From the IMG/VR virus record IMGVR_UViG_3300034684_000299, positions 121,438 to 185,437 of that record: 64,000 nucleotides of DNA, one strand, 5' to 3'. Within the stretch, counting starts at the first letter, position 1; every line of letters begins with the position of its first letter. This DNA comes from a virus. Below, one piece after another: positions 9,464-64,000 of the stretch. A program made the position numbers and the translations under genes. The notes under the pieces are model-generated. The model worked only from the letters and a program-made list of their open reading frames with translations. It was not told the DNA's origin and did not search any database.

Positions 9464-9871
9464 ATGAAAGCAGGAGATTTTAGAAAAGAAGTATTAGACA
9501 TAATACGTGATAATTTTGATTACGACAAACGAATCCCAATGGAAGATTATGAAACTGCTTTAGATAAAGTTTTAGATGCGGTTGATGAAGAAGATATGAC
9601 ATTAGAGGAAATAGAAAAAGAATTAACAGATGTTGAAGGTAATGTACATGATTATGCCGATGGTTCTGTTCATCCTTATACAGCGGATCTTTTGAGATGG
9701 TATTTGGAAGATATAAATAGGGTATATTATATGGAAGATGCAATCAAAGAGCTAGGTGCTGAAGATGGATTTCAGGTTTTAACTGGTGGGCAATATTTAT
9801 ATTGGGAAGAAGTTTTGAACGAAGTAATAGAAGTTTGTTTGCAATTAATAGAAACAAAGAAAAAAAAATGA
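9464..9871 (+). CDS. Putative Ocr-like DNA mimic (family C)
   Basis: HDYADGSVHPYTADLL is the closest by-eye match to the Ocr motif. Confidence 0.5.
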   Translation: MKAGDFRKEVLDIIRDNFDYDKRIPMEDYETALDKVLDAVDEEDMTLEEIEKELTDVEGNVHDYADGSVHPYTADLLRWYLEDINRVYYMEDAIKELGAEDGFQVLTGGQYLYWEEVLNEVIEVCLQLIETKKKK

Positions 9872-9886
9872 ATCTAAAAAAGAAGA

Positions 9887-10144
9887 GTCAACTACCCCCG
9901 TCTAAAGACGGTGGCTTGTAATAAGCAAGCCCTAGTTGATTAGCCTCAGCCAGAGTCGCAAGACTATCGGGCTACGTTATATCGGAATATATAGGTACCA
10001 TAGGATGCTCCACAAGTCCGATGCTCTACGGTCAGTGATTAAACATCTCTGAGGGGTAGGAGAAGTGTTGCTGACAACAAACCCAATATAACATTGGCGA
10101 TGTGGACCTACCGCTTAACAGCGGATTTATCCTCGAAAGAGGAT
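9887..10144 (+). ncRNA. IscB-type omegaRNA (HEARO-like) scaffold, stand-alone
   Basis: GTCAACTACCCC...GGCTTG, GTTGATTAGCCT, CTACGTTAT, AACATTGGCGA hallmarks; ends in a CCTCGAAAGAGG hairpin; no iscB downstream. Confidence 0.8.
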
Positions 10145-10241
10145 CTAAGTAGGTTCCTATCTCCAAAGATAGGAGCCTATTTCTATTAATTACCAGCTTT
10201 CATCTCTCCAATGAATTGGAGAGTGTTCTAGCTGAATTTTC
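9887..10241 (-). mobile_element. Non-autonomous IS200/IS605 mini-element (left end + omegaRNA + right end, no ORF)
   Basis: Minus-strand right end AAGCCACCGTCTTTAGACGGGGGTAGTTGAC; left-end hairpin CTCTCCAATTCATTGGAGAG next to TTTAT. Removing it restores AGAAGAATAAAGGAGGAATTAAAATG, which also occurs just upstream of the 7067 start codon. Confidence 0.75.
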
Positions 10242-10258
10242 ATAAAGGAGGAATTAAA

Positions 10259-10660
10259 ATGGGAACAGGTGAATTCAAAAAATTGGTAGAAAGTTTGAAT
10301 AACGGGGAACCAGTCAGAGTAATAGTAAACAAAGAAGAATTAGAGAAATTAACACAGATTTATAAATTTGATGAAAATTATTTTGAATTAGGTTTATACA
10401 TGATGGATGTAACAAGGGACAGAGACCCAGATATTGATCTCAACGATGAAGATTTTGATTATTATCGAGAAAATGGGGAAATACTATTTGTATTTGACCC
10501 AAGATCAGAAGATACTTCAATGTATTGGTGGTTAGATGGGTATTATTTTCTAACTGAAGATCCTTTTGAGGGTTCCGAATGGGAAAAAACTTCTATTAGC
10601 GAAATAAATTTTTGGGCAAAAATTCTCGAAAATAAATATATGAAGGAGGAAGGGAAATGA
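10259..10660 (+). CDS. Hypothetical protein (family D)
   Basis: GEFKK...ENGEILFVFD...INFWAKIL. Confidence 0.8.
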   Translation: MGTGEFKKLVESLNNGEPVRVIVNKEELEKLTQIYKFDENYFELGLYMMDVTRDRDPDIDLNDEDFDYYRENGEILFVFDPRSEDTSMYWWLDGYYFLTEDPFEGSEWEKTSISEINFWAKILENKYMKEEGK

Positions 10661-13776: not shown

Positions 13777-14886
13777 ATGGCATTCGAAATAAATACAAGA
13801 GATCTAAGAAATGCTGTTCAACTCACCACAAATGCTGTTTCAAAAAAGACAACTAATCCTATTTTGAAGGGAATAAAGTTAGAAGTAGATGGTGATGTGT
13901 TACATATCTATGCTACTGATTTACAAACCGGATTTCATAAATGGTTGGAAATTAAAAGTGATGGCAAGAACTTTTCTACTGTGGTAGAACAAAATATTTT
14001 CTTAGAAATCATATCAAATCTTAATTATGATACACTTAATATCGATTTAGATGGTGTATTAAAGATATCTAGTGGTAATTCAGTATTCAAGTTGCCTACG
14101 ATGAATCCTGAATTGTTCCCTTCAGTTACATTTGATGTTAGAGGGAACATTATTGAAATAGATAGAACACTTCTTACAGACATGATTGATAAAGTTATCT
14201 TCTGTGTTGCAAAAGATTCTTCTCCATTTTCAGCTAGTATAAACGCTATTTACTGGGATTTCACACAAGAAGGATTTTTAAATCTAGTTGCTACAGATTC
14301 ATATCGATTAGCTATTTGTAAACATCAGTTGGAAAATGGGGATAGACTTTCCCCATTCCTTTTATCGTTGAAAAGTATGAACGAATTAAAAGTTATTTTA
14401 TCAGAATCAAAAGAAGAGAAAATAAAAATAGTTCAGGATATATCACAGGTTCTTTTTGATTTTGAAGAGGATAATAATCGTGTGATTTTTAATGTTGTAG
14501 AAGCAAACTTCCCAGACTATATTAGTATAATTCCACAAAAATTCATTACCGAAATTAAATCCAAATCCACAGAATTTCTAGGAATAATGAAAAGAATGTC
14601 TATTGTATCAAAACAAGAAGATTTAACTTTGTTCAATATAAACGATGGATATATACAATTTTATGCTGATTCTCCAGATGTTGGTGAAGCAAGAGAAGAA
14701 ATAACAGTAGAACAAAAAGGAAAAAATCTTGAGATAGGTTATTCGCCAAAATTTTTTAGAGAAGCTTTGGAAAAAGTAGAGACAGCAGAATTCGAATTAA
14801 AAATATCCGGTGAGGAACAACCAGCTATATTAAAACCTGCAGAAGATGACAGTTATATGTTTATAATAATGCCAAAAAGGAAATAA
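13777..14886 (+). CDS. dnaN: DNA polymerase III beta sliding clamp
   Basis: PILKGI, ATDL, LVATDSYRLA, NFPDY, SPDVGEARE, YMFIIMP motifs; 369 aa. Confidence 0.95.
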   Translation: MAFEINTRDLRNAVQLTTNAVSKKTTNPILKGIKLEVDGDVLHIYATDLQTGFHKWLEIKSDGKNFSTVVEQNIFLEIISNLNYDTLNIDLDGVLKISSGNSVFKLPTMNPELFPSVTFDVRGNIIEIDRTLLTDMIDKVIFCVAKDSSPFSASINAIYWDFTQEGFLNLVATDSYRLAICKHQLENGDRLSPFLLSLKSMNELKVILSESKEEKIKIVQDISQVLFDFEEDNNRVIFNVVEANFPDYISIIPQKFITEIKSKSTEFLGIMKRMSIVSKQEDLTLFNINDGYIQFYADSPDVGEAREEITVEQKGKNLEIGYSPKFFREALEKVETAEFELKISGEEQPAILKPAEDDSYMFIIMPKRK

Positions 14887-14891
14887 ATTCA

Positions 14892-14925
14892 GCTTCCTAT
14901 CTTCAGATAGGAGGCTTATTTTTTT
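14892..14925 (+). terminator. Intrinsic terminator
   Basis: GCTTCCTATCT-tc-AGATAGGAGGC followed by a T-tract. Confidence 0.7.
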
Positions 14926-27419: not shown

Positions 27420-27486
27420 GTTAAGTGTTTTAAGGGTTCCTATCAATTGGGATAGGAACCTAATTTTTAAAAAAGGAGGTAATAAA

Positions 27487-29902: not shown

Positions 29903-30125
29903 GTCAACTACCCCACCCTATAGAGGGTGGAGCTTGTAAAAGCTCAAGTTGACTACCCTAAGTCCTTCGAGGACTACGTTATATAGGTCATAACACCTAC
30001 GGGCGTTTCTCCTAACTCGTAGCTCTGTTGCTTAACTTTAAACAATCCTGTGAGGTAGGGATAGTGAGTTAAGTGTAAAAAGCCTATATAACATTGGGGA
30101 AGGAGACATTACTCCAAAAGGAGGT
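29903..30125 (+). ncRNA. IscB-type omegaRNA (HEARO-like) scaffold, no iscB downstream
   Basis: GTCAACTACCCC...GCTTG, GTTGACTACCCTAAG, CTACGTTATA, AACATTGGGGA hallmarks; terminal CTCC-aaaa-GGAG. Confidence 0.8.
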
Positions 30126-30134
30126 ATACTTTAT

Positions 30135-31566
30135 GAAAATCCAGCGAGAACACTCTCCAATTCATTGGAGAGATGAGAGCTGGCTTTAAACAATGAAACA
30201 AATTTTAACTACAAATATTATATATAAATGTATGATACATTTGTAATATATTATACAATTATCTAATAAAGGAGAATTTAAGATGTTGAAGACATATAAG
30301 TTTCGTATATACCCAACAGAAGAACAAATTGAGAAGTTGAACCAGCATTTCGGACATACTCGATTTGTATATAACTTGTTCTTAGAGCTTTCAAGCAATG
30401 CATATAAAAATACCAAAACGCATACTAATTACAATGTTTGGGCTAAAATGCTTGTGGCTCTTAAGAAATCCGAAAAGTATAAATGGCTGAACGATGTTAA
30501 CTCTCAATCGTTACAACAATCTTTGAAAGACTTAGATACTGGCTATAAACGTTTCTTTAAGAAGCAGAGTAAACATCCGAAATTCAAGAAAAAAGCGAAT
30601 AGACAATCGTTTAGAGTTCCTCAACATATACAATTGTACGAAAATGAGAGTAACGATAAATACGGTATTCTTTTCATTCCTAAGTTTAAAGAAGGCATTA
30701 AAGTACGTATGCATCGTAAAGTACCTTCTAATGCTAAGTTGAAAAGTTGTACGATTGTTAAAACTACTACAAATAATTACTATGTGTCTATTCTTGTGGA
30801 AACAGATGAAATCGTACCTGTAAGAGATATAGACTACAAAAATTCAATTGGTATAGATGTAGGGCTTAAGGATATGGCAATTTTGTCTAACGGTAAAAAA
30901 TACGAAGTGCTCAAACCATTAGCCAAACTTGAGAGAAAACTAAAACGTGTTCAAAAGAAACTTTCAAAGAAAGTTCTATATTCCAAGAATTGGCATAAAG
31001 CAAAATTAGAGGTGGCTAAAGTACATGAGAAAATTAAGAATACAAGAGAGGATTTTTTACATAAACTAACGAAGGAAATCAGCGAGAACCAAGCTGATGT
31101 CTTTTTCGTTGAGACTCTTAATATAAGTGGCATGTTAAAGAATCATCATTTAGCTAAAAGTATCTCAGATGTAAGTTGGTACAAATTCAAGACGTTTCTA
31201 AAATACAAAGCAGAGAGGTTAGGTAAGAAGGTAATCGAGATAGGAATGTTCGAACCTTCGTCTAAGATTTGTAGTGTTTGTGGATATAAGAACAAAGATT
31301 TAGAACTCTCTGATAGAGAATGGATATGTCCTGAATGTGGTACCAAACACGATAGAGATATAAATGCCGCTATCAATATTAGACAGTTTGGAATAGATAA
31401 ATATACTTCCAAACCATCGAAAGAGTTGCAGTTAGTTCCTGCTTAAAAGAACTCTACCCCAGGGACTGGGGAATGTTAAGCCTTTGGAGACTGTGTAAGA
31501 CGAGCATTCATTGTCGCAACAGTCGATGAATTAGGAAGCTTACCTCTTTAGAGGTAAGTAGTTCAC
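30135..31566 (+). mobile_element. IS200/IS605-family tnpB-only element
   Basis: Left-end hairpin CTCTCCAATTCATTGGAGAG 3' of TTTAT; right-end hairpin CTTACCTCTTTAGAGGTAAG then TAGTTCAC; no tnpA. Confidence 0.85.
30283..31446 (+). CDS. tnpB: TnpB RNA-guided nuclease
   Basis: HTH KFRIYPTEEQ, RuvC-I GIDVG, RuvC-II FVETL, zinc ribbon CSVCG/CPECG, RuvC-III DRDINAA; catalytic residues present. Confidence 0.95.
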   Translation: MLKTYKFRIYPTEEQIEKLNQHFGHTRFVYNLFLELSSNAYKNTKTHTNYNVWAKMLVALKKSEKYKWLNDVNSQSLQQSLKDLDTGYKRFFKKQSKHPKFKKKANRQSFRVPQHIQLYENESNDKYGILFIPKFKEGIKVRMHRKVPSNAKLKSCTIVKTTTNNYYVSILVETDEIVPVRDIDYKNSIGIDVGLKDMAILSNGKKYEVLKPLAKLERKLKRVQKKLSKKVLYSKNWHKAKLEVAKVHEKIKNTREDFLHKLTKEISENQADVFFVETLNISGMLKNHHLAKSISDVSWYKFKTFLKYKAERLGKKVIEIGMFEPSSKICSVCGYKNKDLELSDREWICPECGTKHDRDINAAINIRQFGIDKYTSKPSKELQLVPA

Positions 31567-63657: not shown

Positions 63658-63720
63658 CAAGAACTAGAAAGGTGTTTTTAGCTTTAGAATAGAAAAATTT
63701 AGTATATGAGCTTTTATCAT

Positions 63721-64000
63721 AAAGTGCAAGAAGACACCCACCTCTATAGGTGGGGGATGAATTGCACCTATAGTACACAAAATCCTTTTCTAAACATATA
63801 AGGCTTAACTAAACTTGTTTTAACTGGTTTAGACAGTTCCACTAACCTAATATATTCTCCTTTGTTTTGTATGCCTTTAACAGTATATTTTTTCCCTTGG
63901 TATATAACAATATCCTTAGGCTGATAAGAATATCTTTGCTTACGGATACTTCTTCTTCCACTTGACTTTTTAGTTCCACGATACTTACGAAGGTTTTCTT
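63721..64000. mobile_element. IS200/IS605 IscB element, left end (runs off the window)
   Basis: GCAAGAAGACACCCACCTCTATAGGTGGGGGATGAATTGC end hairpin abuts the iscB stop. Confidence 0.75.
63768..64000 (-). CDS. iscB: IscB RNA-guided nuclease, C-terminal fragment (5'-partial, absent from ORF track)
   Basis: Manual translation ENLRKYRGTKKSSGRRSIRKQRYSYQPKDIVIYQGKKYTVKGIQNKGEYIRL...FRKGFCVL* resembles IscB C-termini. IsrB cannot be excluded from this fragment. Confidence 0.7.
   Translation of the reverse strand, partial: ENLRKYRGTKKSSGRRSIRKQRYSYQPKDIVIYQGKKYTVKGIQNKGEYIRLVELSKPVKTSLVKPYMFRKGFCVL

What the first reader, a model, noticed from the sequence alone, without database searches (positions are those of the whole stretch)
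9887..10241. Protein-free 355-bp OMEGA mini-transposon: IscB-type omegaRNA bounded by a TnpB-type left end
Seen: a full IscB-type omegaRNA scaffold with no iscB. It is closed by a 55-nt segment (10193-10247, minus strand) that differs at only 3 positions from the left end of the tnpB element at 30129-30183. Both copies abut TTTAT. In silico excision gives ...AGAAGA|ATAAAGGAGGAATTAAAATG, the same junction found before the 7067 start, which fixes the boundaries. Established: IscB guides are the 5' flank of the omegaRNA, ATAAA is a reported IscB TAM, and IS200/605 ends are mobilised by TnpA. Inference: a chimeric RNA-only element that moves using TnpB-family ends and supplies guides in trans to an IscB encoded elsewhere.
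Basis: partly seen in the sequence, partly recalled or inferred. Interest (0 to 1): 0.8.

Follow-up and report, generated by a model that had tools for sequence, protein, structure and literature searches.

The report
Nuclease-less IscB guide-RNA mini-transposon in phage
A 355-base insert between two genes of a 185-kb phage is a jumping element that has lost its nuclease gene and keeps only its two ends and a complete IscB guide-RNA scaffold. This kind of element is already described; the one unusual point is that its far end matches the phage's TnpB elements.

Summary
Window 9887-10111 (+) is a full-length HEARO/IscB omegaRNA (153 bits, cut-off 83) with no iscB. Positions 10193-10247 are a 95% inverted copy of the left end (LE) of the tnpB element at 30135. 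Removing 9887-10241 restores a gene junction like those of two paralogous genes.

The layout itself is not chimeric. In IscB elements the omegaRNA lies at the transposon right end (RE) and the LE plus TAM lie at the far side (Meers et al., PMC10055086). Read on the minus strand, this is a normal IS200/IS605 unit: TTTAT|LE...RE|.

It derives from an IscB element by deletion. It still carries the post-scaffold hairpin, a decayed ribosome site and about 17 decayed iscB codons, fused directly to the LE.

The chimera idea survives in a narrower form. This LE type occurs with TnpB/TnpA cargo in the phage, in Thermotogota and elsewhere, and never with HEARO or IscB in what I sampled.

The phage encodes TnpA, four IscB and two TnpB genes, so partners in trans exist. 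Only one copy was found and no empty-site allele, so neither movement nor RNA function is shown.

This is a known kind (PATE-like omegaRNA elements). The scan has found similar elements before on other DNA.

The parts
9871..9886 (+). Predicted 16-nt guide (AATCTAAAAAAGAAGA). It is the 5' flank of the omegaRNA scaffold and lies outside the element. It corresponds to the last codons of the ancestral upstream gene.
   Evidence: Its position directly 5' of the HEARO start. IscB guides are 5' of the scaffold (established knowledge; Meers et al.). That it acts as a guide is inferred.
9887..10111 (+). Complete IscB-type omegaRNA scaffold (HEARO, RF02033).
   Evidence: It scores 153 bits against a cut-off of 83, over model positions 1-211. 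It keeps 43/45 consensus pairs. Among the phage's six copies, 20/45 pairs show compensatory changes.
9887..9942 (-). Right end (RE) of the element on its top strand, which is the window's minus strand. It has the subterminal hairpin CCGTC-TTTA-GACGG and the terminal ...GGGTAGTTGAC| cleavage boundary at 9887.
   Evidence: All six HEARO copies begin at GTCAAC and have unrelated flanks. The RE alignment with the four TnpB-type REs (...hairpin-GTAGTTCAC|) is. The ssDNA fold gives -13.3 kcal/mol, z -5.1.
10111..10124 (+). Extra 3' stem-loop of the omegaRNA (CCGCT-TAAC-AGCGG). It lies beyond the Rfam model. All IscB-linked copies have a stem-loop at the same place, with different sequences.
   Evidence: Alignments. 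Meers et al. note that RF02033 lacks downstream elements.
10135..10191 (+). Decayed remnant of the iscB ribosome-binding site (GAAAGAGG, 10135-10142) and of about the first 17 iscB codons. This remnant now forms a 16-pair terminator-like hairpin at 10147-10182.
   Evidence: It aligns collinearly with an IscB element of a Thermotogota genome (L142) and with phage IscB elements. The whole tail gives z 10.7; the coding part alone gives z 3.3, with 8 of 500 shuffles scoring as well.
10193..10241 (-). Left end (LE), with the subterminal hairpin CTCTCCAAT-TCA-TTGGAGAG 18 nt from the cleavage site. It is nearly identical to the LE of the phage's TnpB-type elements.
   Evidence: I1, 95%. In the sequences printed it differs at 2-3 of about 49 positions from each of the three other copies (the identity figures printed for locus B in that call are off by one base in register). 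The ssDNA fold gives z -3.1.
10242..10246 (+). TAM / insertion target: ATAAA on the + strand, TTTAT on the element's top strand. It is part of the ATAAAGGAGG ribosome site of the downstream gene (ATG at 10259).
   Evidence: TTTAT also flanks the LE at 30130-30134, at genome 95641-45 and at the IscB element at the window's end. ATAAA is the reported TAM of KraIscB-1 (PMC11610941).
29903..30112 (+). Second HEARO without iscB (locus B). It is followed by an iscB ribosome site and CTTTATG, into which the tnpB element is inserted.
   Evidence: 162.6 bits. Thermotogota IscB elements L151 and L154 read ...AAGGAGGTGCACTTTATGTTAGTG... at the same place.
30135..31566 (+). TnpB-only IS605-type element. 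LE at 30135-30183, tnpB at 30283-31446, RE/omegaRNA scaffold ending ...GTAGTTCAC| at 31566. It is the source type of the orphan's LE.
   Evidence: Pfam HTH_OrfB_IS605, OrfB_IS605 and Cas12f1-like_TNB. Ends.
63713..63998 (-). C-terminal 76 aa of an IscB (cut by the end of the record), then its LE (63718-63767) and the TAM ATAAA (63713-63717). It is a candidate trans partner with the same TAM.
   Evidence: An RRXRR N-terminal part and a HEARO lie at the other end of the record.

Best explanation
Window 9887-10241 is a non-autonomous, protein-less IS200/IS605 element (PATE-like). It derives from an IscB element by a deletion running from about codon 18 of iscB to the inner edge of the left end.

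Anatomy on its top strand (the window's minus strand): TTTAT | LE with hairpin ... decayed iscB start and ribosome site ... omegaRNA scaffold, whose 5' end is the RE | flank. It inserted, or was formed, exactly at the GA|A TAA end of a small phage gene, in front of the next gene's ATAAAGGAGG ribosome site.

Proposed working:
1. The Y1 transposase TnpA acts in trans. It is encoded once in this phage (genome 107097-107456) and also in host genomes. It recognises the two subterminal hairpins on single-stranded DNA. It can excise the unit without a scar and insert it 3' of another TTTAT.
2. Read-through transcription from the co-oriented upstream gene would make an RNA of 16-nt flank plus scaffold. 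It would end at the internal hairpins.
3. One of the phage's IscB proteins would load this RNA. Candidates are the IscB at genome 103247-104638, whose omegaRNA is 84% identical, and the split IscB at the record ends, whose own flank shows the TAM ATAAA.
4. The complex would cut the empty site AATCTAAAAAAGAAGA+ATAAA, either in a genome that lost the element or in a co-infecting relative that lacks it. Repair from an occupied copy would restore or spread the insert.

Shown: the anatomy, the boundaries, the integrity of the scaffold, the deletion origin, and the presence of TnpA and IscB genes.

Inferred: transcription, loading by IscB, cleavage, and actual mobility.

The LE is of the lineage otherwise seen only with TnpB/TnpA cargo. 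The unit is therefore probably a recombinant. One possible route is a TnpB-type element inserted in tandem at the shared TTTAT of an IscB element, followed by one deletion.
For: - HEARO is full length, at 153 bits. It keeps 43/45 consensus pairs, the same as the IscB-linked copies. Covariation is seen in 20/45 pairs.
- The RE boundary GTCAAC is shared by 6 copies with unrelated flanks. The RE design matches the TnpB-type REs.
- The LE is 95% identical to that of the tnpB element and lies next to TTTAT, as in 3 other copies.
- LE and RE are on the same strand and in the right order. There is no target duplication.
- The reconstructed empty site matches paralog junctions and restores a paralog-like ORF end.
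- The tail aligns collinearly with the iscB ribosome site and first codons of a Thermotogota IscB element.
- The same genome holds TnpA (127 bits, 150-aa open frame), two TnpB, and four IscB with RRXRR+HNH.
- The same genome holds two 260-bp TnpB-type minis with the same LE.
- Literature: the omegaRNA is bounded by the RE, one TnpA serves a network of TnpB/IscB elements, and PATE-like elements 'often encode omegaRNAs' that must be used in trans (PMC10055086).
- This LE type lies beside tnpB in Thermotogota at 89-92% identity. No HEARO was found in 14 loci carrying this hairpin.
Against: - Only one copy exists. None was found elsewhere in the phage, in 151 Thermotogota genomes or in IMG/VR. Movement as a unit is therefore not shown.
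- No empty-site allele could be retrieved.
- No promoter was predicted, and the phage's own promoters are unknown.
- The nearest in-phage omegaRNA is only 84% identical, so cross-loading by that IscB is an assumption.
- The RE terminal motif differs by one base (GTTGAC versus GTTCAC) from that of the tnpA-carrying element. Recognition by this TnpA is inferred.
- The homology of the decayed coding remnant is only moderately significant on its own (z 3.3).
Confidence: 0.8

Rival explanations
1. The element is a plain deletion derivative of an IscB element that already carried this LE, with no recombination with a TnpB element. LEs of one TnpA network are simply kept alike by selection.
For: All LEs in the phage share one layout: TTTAY | about 8 nt, arm, AGAAxA, hairpin, ATGAA, arm. 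This holds for the tnpA-tnpB, tnpB-only, mini and IscB elements. IscB element 11969 has a similar hairpin, CTCGCCATT-TCA-ATGGTGAG. Meers et al. report highly similar LE/RE across TnpB and IscB elements. The same hairpin serves as LE or as RE in distant genomes, so it is a family-wide TnpA site.
Against: No IscB or HEARO was found next to this LE type in any sampled locus: 88 loci tested for IscB by tblastn, and 14 loci carrying this hairpin (8 of them Thermotogota) tested by Rfam. The IscB elements closest to the orphan carry other LE hairpins. In this family LEs diverge faster than REs: the tnpA-tnpB element and locus B match at 78-80% over their REs, but their LEs gave no BLAST match. A 94-96% LE match therefore suggests recent shared descent.
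Confidence: 0.3
2. The stretch is an immobile relic formed in place. An IscB element and a neighbouring TnpB-type element decayed at this site, and the RNA is no longer used. It only looks like a transposable unit.
For: It is a single copy with no second insertion site anywhere searched. Locus B shows that truncated, LE-less HEARO remnants do persist in this phage. The iscB remnant is heavily decayed.
Against: The scaffold scores within the range of the IscB-linked copies (146-163 bits) and keeps 43/45 pairs. The LE differs from the other copies at only 2-3 positions, with the hairpin intact. Both boundaries are exact to the base. The contrast between a decayed coding remnant and an intact RNA and ends is what purifying selection on the RNA and ends would give.
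Confidence: 0.15
3. The RNA has been taken over by the phage for another role. It might be a transcription stop or attenuator between two early genes, or a guide aimed at a competitor or at host DNA, rather than serving element retention.
For: Two terminator-like hairpins lie in the + direction inside the element. The larger one resembles two native phage terminators at 14894 and 27437 (I14, 43, 44, 45).
Against: No other site in the phage matches the guide plus TAM with fewer than 3 mismatches. The hairpin is explained by decayed iscB codons. The tails after the stems are T-poor.
Confidence: 0.05

Closest known systems
PATE-like, protein-less IS200/IS605 elements that encode omegaRNAs, within the ISGst network of Geobacillus stearothermophilus (Meers et al. 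2023, preprint PMC10055086)
   Same: It has LE and RE but no gene and keeps an omegaRNA. It depends on TnpA and on a nuclease encoded by other elements of the same genome. TAM is TTTAT, as for ISGst2. It sits in a network of TnpB and IscB elements with similar ends.
   Different: It lies in a phage genome rather than a bacterial chromosome. The scaffold is IscB-type, while the paper's sentence on PATEs names TnpB. It is a single copy. Its LE belongs to the lineage seen with TnpB cargo, so the two ends seem to have different histories.
HEARO RNA (Rfam RF02033; Weinberg et al. 2009, from my own knowledge) and the IscB omegaRNA (Altae-Tran et al. 2021, as summarised in PMC11610941)
   Same: It is a full-length match with covarying stems. 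The guide position is 5' of the scaffold and the TAM is 3' (ATAAA, as for KraIscB-1).
   Different: No iscB follows it. Only a decayed ribosome site and about 17 decayed codons remain.
The two 260-bp TnpB-type mini elements of the same phage (genome 95646-95905 and 116528-116787)
   Same: They have the same LE (2-3 differences) and the same TTTAT/TTAT target. They are protein-less and each carries a guide-RNA scaffold.
   Different: Their RE is the TnpB omegaRNA scaffold, with the guide 3' and on the same strand as the LE. Here the RE is the reverse complement of an IscB omegaRNA, with the guide 5' and on the opposite strand.

Membership tests
HEARO / IscB omegaRNA (RF02033) | Covariance-model score at or above the gathering score, over the whole model | tested here: met
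   153.0 bits against 83, model positions 1-211/211, E 3e-32.
HEARO / IscB omegaRNA (RF02033) | Stems kept and supported by compensatory changes among related copies | tested here: met
   43/45 consensus pairs are standard in the orphan, as in the IscB-linked copies. 20/45 pairs have double changes among the six copies.
HEARO / IscB omegaRNA (RF02033) | An iscB (HNH/RuvC) ORF directly downstream | tested here: not met
   There is no such ORF. Only a decayed ribosome site and about 17 codons remain. ORF-less HEARO copies are themselves a known state.
HEARO / IscB omegaRNA (RF02033) | The RNA is expressed and bound by IscB, and directs TAM-dependent cleavage | not testable with these tools
   This needs RNA-seq and cleavage assays.
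Non-autonomous IS200/IS605 element (PATE-like) | LE with a subterminal hairpin, cleaved 3' of a conserved 4-5-nt target (TAM) | tested here: met
   TTTAT|G..., with 18 nt to the hairpin CTCTCCAAT-TCA-TTGGAGAG. Three other copies have the same boundary. The ssDNA fold gives z -3.1.
Non-autonomous IS200/IS605 element (PATE-like) | RE with a subterminal hairpin and a conserved terminal motif, on the same strand as the LE and 3' of it | tested here: met
   ...CCGTCTTTAGACGGGGGTAGTTGAC| lies on the minus strand, 3' of the LE. It is the same design as ...CCTCTTTAGAGGTAAGTAGTTCAC| of the tnpB elements.
Non-autonomous IS200/IS605 element (PATE-like) | No target-site duplication; scarless empty site | tested here: met
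   The flanks AAGAAGA and ATAAAGG are not repeats. The joined flanks reproduce paralog junctions and a paralog-like stop codon. This rests on paralogs within the genome, not on an empty allele.
Non-autonomous IS200/IS605 element (PATE-like) | No protein gene; a Y1 TnpA available in trans | tested here: met
   No ORF. Y1_Tnp scores 127.5 bits in a 150-aa open frame at genome 107097-107456.
Non-autonomous IS200/IS605 element (PATE-like) | Evidence of movement: further copies at other sites, or an empty-site allele | tested here: inconclusive
   No second copy was found. No syntenic relative could be retrieved.
   The LE is 94-96% identical to the phage's TnpB-type LEs and 89-92% to Thermotogota tnpB LEs. 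The phage and host IscB elements examined carry other hairpins. No HEARO or IscB lies near this LE type. The number of IscB elements whose LE was examined is small.

The most novel reading that the evidence does not exclude
The element is a natural end-swap hybrid. A TnpB-lineage LE became joined to an IscB omegaRNA/RE, for instance by tandem insertion at a shared TTTAT followed by one deletion. The result is a guide-only parasite that uses three trans factors' worth of machinery from two OMEGA classes. In a phage, such orphan guides (this one and the one at 29903) would let one IscB drive several insertion-marked loci into co-infecting relatives.
Probability: 0.3. Interest if true: 0.5.

Novelty: new member of a known kind. 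Interest (0 to 1): 0.33.

Why it matters
It is a clean, fully delimited example of how OMEGA elements shed their nuclease gene yet keep the guide RNA and both transposase sites. The deletion scar is still readable.

It lies in a 185-kb phage that holds a whole network: one TnpA, two TnpB, four IscB and three gene-less minis. The same element families occur in its Thermotogota hosts, with one IscB 97% identical over half its length. That makes the phage a convenient natural system for two tests: whether orphan guide RNAs are used in trans, and whether LE and RE modules are exchanged between TnpB and IscB elements.

It does not reveal a new mechanism.

Tried and rejected
Empty-site alleles and sister phages
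- The downstream protein was sought in viral contigs, alone and as an alignment. It was also sought in metagenome contigs and genome contigs. None gave a relative.
- The upstream protein family in metagenome contigs gave one distant locus, L098, with a different neighbour gene.
- The 363-aa neighbour gave 39 IMG/VR loci, but none keeps the flanking genes.
- Closer homologs exist only in Logan assemblies: P0001 at 89% and P0005 at 80%.
- INPHARED phages gave only two weak HEARO-level hits.

Further copies
- Exact patterns from the LE and from the middle segment found nothing in IMG/VR.

Ideas I dropped
- I first thought the phage IscB at genome 103006 had no LE. Host relatives show that its LE overlaps the end of the ORF.
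- I first read the 10147-10182 hairpin as a captured phage terminator. Alignment to iscB 5' codons explains it better, though its likeness to two native terminators stays unexplained.
- The middle segment has no other significant match in the genome.

Literature
- Altae-Tran et al. 2021 (PMC8929163) is not held. What I say about stand-alone omegaRNAs in that paper is from memory.

Full report
**Context**

The window is the last 64 kb (genome 121438-185437) of a 185,437-bp IMG/VR virus record, estimated 91% complete. In agreement, 28 of 151 Thermotogota genomes hold DNA like the element, and one phage IscB is 96-98% identical over half its length to IscBs of those genomes.

**The observation**

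- Rfam's HEARO model (RF02033) matches 9887-10111 (+) over its full length at 153 bits, against a cut-off of 83. A second copy lies at 29903-30112, at 162.6 bits.
- The whole phage has six HEARO copies, scoring 146-163 bits.
- Four copies are followed at once by an IscB ORF with RRXRR and HNH domains. The copy at 9887 has no ORF. The copy at 29903 is followed by a tnpB element.
- The orphan forms 43 of the 45 consensus pairs, as do the IscB-linked copies. 20 of the 45 pairs show compensatory changes among the six copies.
- The 55-nt inverted repeat 10193-10247 / 30129-30183 is 95% complementary, with E 4e-16 in self-BLAST.

**Boundaries**

- All six HEARO copies start with GTCAAC, and the sequence upstream is unrelated among them.
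- The LE module occurs four times in the phage, each time starting with G directly after TTTAT (once TTAT), with unrelated outer flanks.
- Joining 9886 to 10242 gives AAAAAGAAGA|ATAAAGGAGGAATTAAAATG. This is the junction seen after two paralogs of the upstream gene.
- In the +1 frame the joined flanks read ...ESKKEE-stop. With eight instead of nine A's at 9860-9868, the gene would end ...KKKNESKKEE*, like its paralogs (...NENKEE*...EEDEEE*). Homologs elsewhere also have longer acidic tails.
- The 355 bp are therefore one block of inserted DNA. The block sits inside the last sense codon, in front of the next gene's ribosome site.

**Why the layout is canonical**

- Read on the minus strand, the block is TTTAT | LE ... 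RE |.
- The reverse complement of the HEARO 5' end is ...CCGTC-TTTA-GACGG-GGGTAGTTGAC|. The REs of the phage's TnpB-type elements read ...CCTC-TTTA-GAGG-TAAGTAGTTCAC| and ...GCCC-TTTA-GGGT-TTGTGTAGTTCAC|.
[quoted passage not shown] They also report that one TnpA excises a family of TnpB and IscB elements with similar ends, and that TnpA and the nuclease read the same TAM.
- An IscB element's far end is therefore an inverted LE followed by the TAM on the omegaRNA strand.
- The IscB element at the window's end shows this: stop codon, LE with hairpin, then ...TTTATG|ATAAAAG.
- The LEs of the tnpA-tnpB element, the tnpB-only element, the two minis, the IscB elements and the orphan all share one plan: TTTAY | about 8 nt, arm, AGAAxA, hairpin, ATGAA, arm.

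**Origin by deletion**

- The best relative of the orphan in 151 Thermotogota genomes is a complete IscB element (L142). It is 76% identical over positions 1-262, including a 35-nt loop insert.
- Beyond the Rfam model the two align collinearly. The shared features, in order, are the extra hairpin (CCGCT..AGCGG), ATTTAT, the ribosome site (GAAAGGAG versus GAAAGAGG), and then the first about 17 codons of iscB in a decayed form with small indels. The whole tail gives z 10.7. The coding part alone gives z 3.3, with 8 of 500 shuffles scoring as well.
- The remnant ends at 10191-10192, directly at the inner edge of the LE module.
- The 16-pair terminator-like hairpin at 10147-10182 is built from these decayed codons.

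**The chimera question**

- The LE differs at 2-3 of about 49 positions from each of the three TnpB-type LEs in the phage.
- It is 92% and 89% identical to LEs beside tnpB genes in two Thermotogota genomes. Their TnpB is 78% identical to the phage's.
- The hairpin CTCTCCAAT-NN-ATTGGAGAG occurs in 82 loci of the GTDB species set and 6 IMG/VR contigs. Where cargo is seen, it is TnpA or TnpB. IscB never appears by tblastn. In some genomes the same hairpin serves as the RE hairpin before TAGTTCAC|.
- In Thermotogota this LE type occurs 8 times in 5 of 151 genomes. None of these loci, nor six others elsewhere, has a HEARO.
- The IscB elements nearest to the orphan carry other LE hairpins.
- The orphan is thus the only HEARO-bearing unit with this LE in what I sampled, which favours a recombinant origin.
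- A simple route exists, because insertion keeps the TAM. A TnpB-type element can land in tandem at the TTTAT of an IscB element, and one deletion then gives LE(T)-remnant-omegaRNA. This route is inference.
- The number of IscB LEs examined is small, so plain deletion of an unseen IscB parent is not excluded.

**Partners in trans**

- The phage encodes one Y1 TnpA (127.5 bits, 150-aa open frame) next to a tnpB.
- The IscB at genome 103247-104638 has an omegaRNA 84% identical to the orphan's. Its host relatives end ...TTGCAGGAAAAT[A/G]|ATAAAT, which gives TAM ATAAA.
- The IscB split across the record ends has the flank ATAAA.
- ATAAA is the TAM reported for KraIscB-1.
- The guide plus TAM has no other close match in the phage, so the predicted target is the empty site itself.

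**Limits**

- There is a single copy, and no empty allele was retrieved.
- There are no expression data.
- Recognition of the GTTGAC-type RE by this TnpA is assumed.

**Verdict**

This is a real, anatomically complete, gene-less IscB-omegaRNA element of a kind already described (PATE-like elements, Meers et al.). This scan has reported similar elements before on other DNA. It is noteworthy only for its phage setting, its readable deletion scar and its probably borrowed left end.

Noticed in passing
window 29903-31566: The second orphan HEARO has no LE of its own. The tnpB element sits 3' of the TTTAT that overlaps the former iscB start (AAGGAGGTATACTTTATG). Thermotogota IscB elements L151 and L154 read AAGGAGGTGCACTTTATGTTAGTG at the same place. 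After the tnpB RE the phage gene's ribosome site follows at once, so iscB and its LE were lost in a way I could not reconstruct.
   Followed up: partly
genome 95646-95905 (+) and 116528-116787 (-), outside the window: Two 260-bp protein-less TnpB-type minis are 98.8% identical to each other. Each is made of the same LE plus an RE/omegaRNA scaffold that is 97% identical to that of the tnpB element at window 30135-31566.
   Followed up: partly
window 10147-10182, 14886-14925, 27430-27470: Three hairpins share the stem TTCCTATC...GATAGGA(A/G). The two outside the element are followed by T-runs and look like native terminators in front of ATAAAGGAGG / AAAAAGGAGG ribosome sites. Why the decayed iscB remnant inside the element resembles them is unexplained.
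   Followed up: partly
L158 (G068:C1:88200-91300), L143, L145: Thermotogota genomes carry several copies of a shortened IscB element. HEARO positions 90-225 are followed within about 25 nt by only the C-terminal half (aa 249-463) of an IscB. That half is 96-98% identical to the phage IscB at genome 103247-104638. This points to very recent exchange between phage and host, and to deletion derivatives being common.
   Followed up: no
window 9860-9871: The upstream gene ends at a TGA just after an A9 run. With A8 it would run on to the paralog-like ...KKEE stop that the insertion split. This is either a real frameshift after the insertion or a homopolymer assembly error.
   Followed up: partly
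record ends: genome 1-666 and 185205-185437 (window 63768-64000): One IscB element appears to be split across the two ends of the linear record. HEARO and the N-terminal 133 aa lie at the start, and the C-terminal 76 aa plus LE lie at the end. The assembly probably broke inside this repeated gene, and the middle of the gene is missing.
   Followed up: no
L041, L044, L047, L074, L078, L079 (Aquificota / Hydrogenothermaceae MAGs): The hairpin that is the LE hairpin here is used there as the RE hairpin (...GGAAG-hairpin-TAGTTCAC|) of tnpA-tnpB elements. One TnpA recognition hairpin can thus sit at either end in this IS605 group.
   Followed up: no
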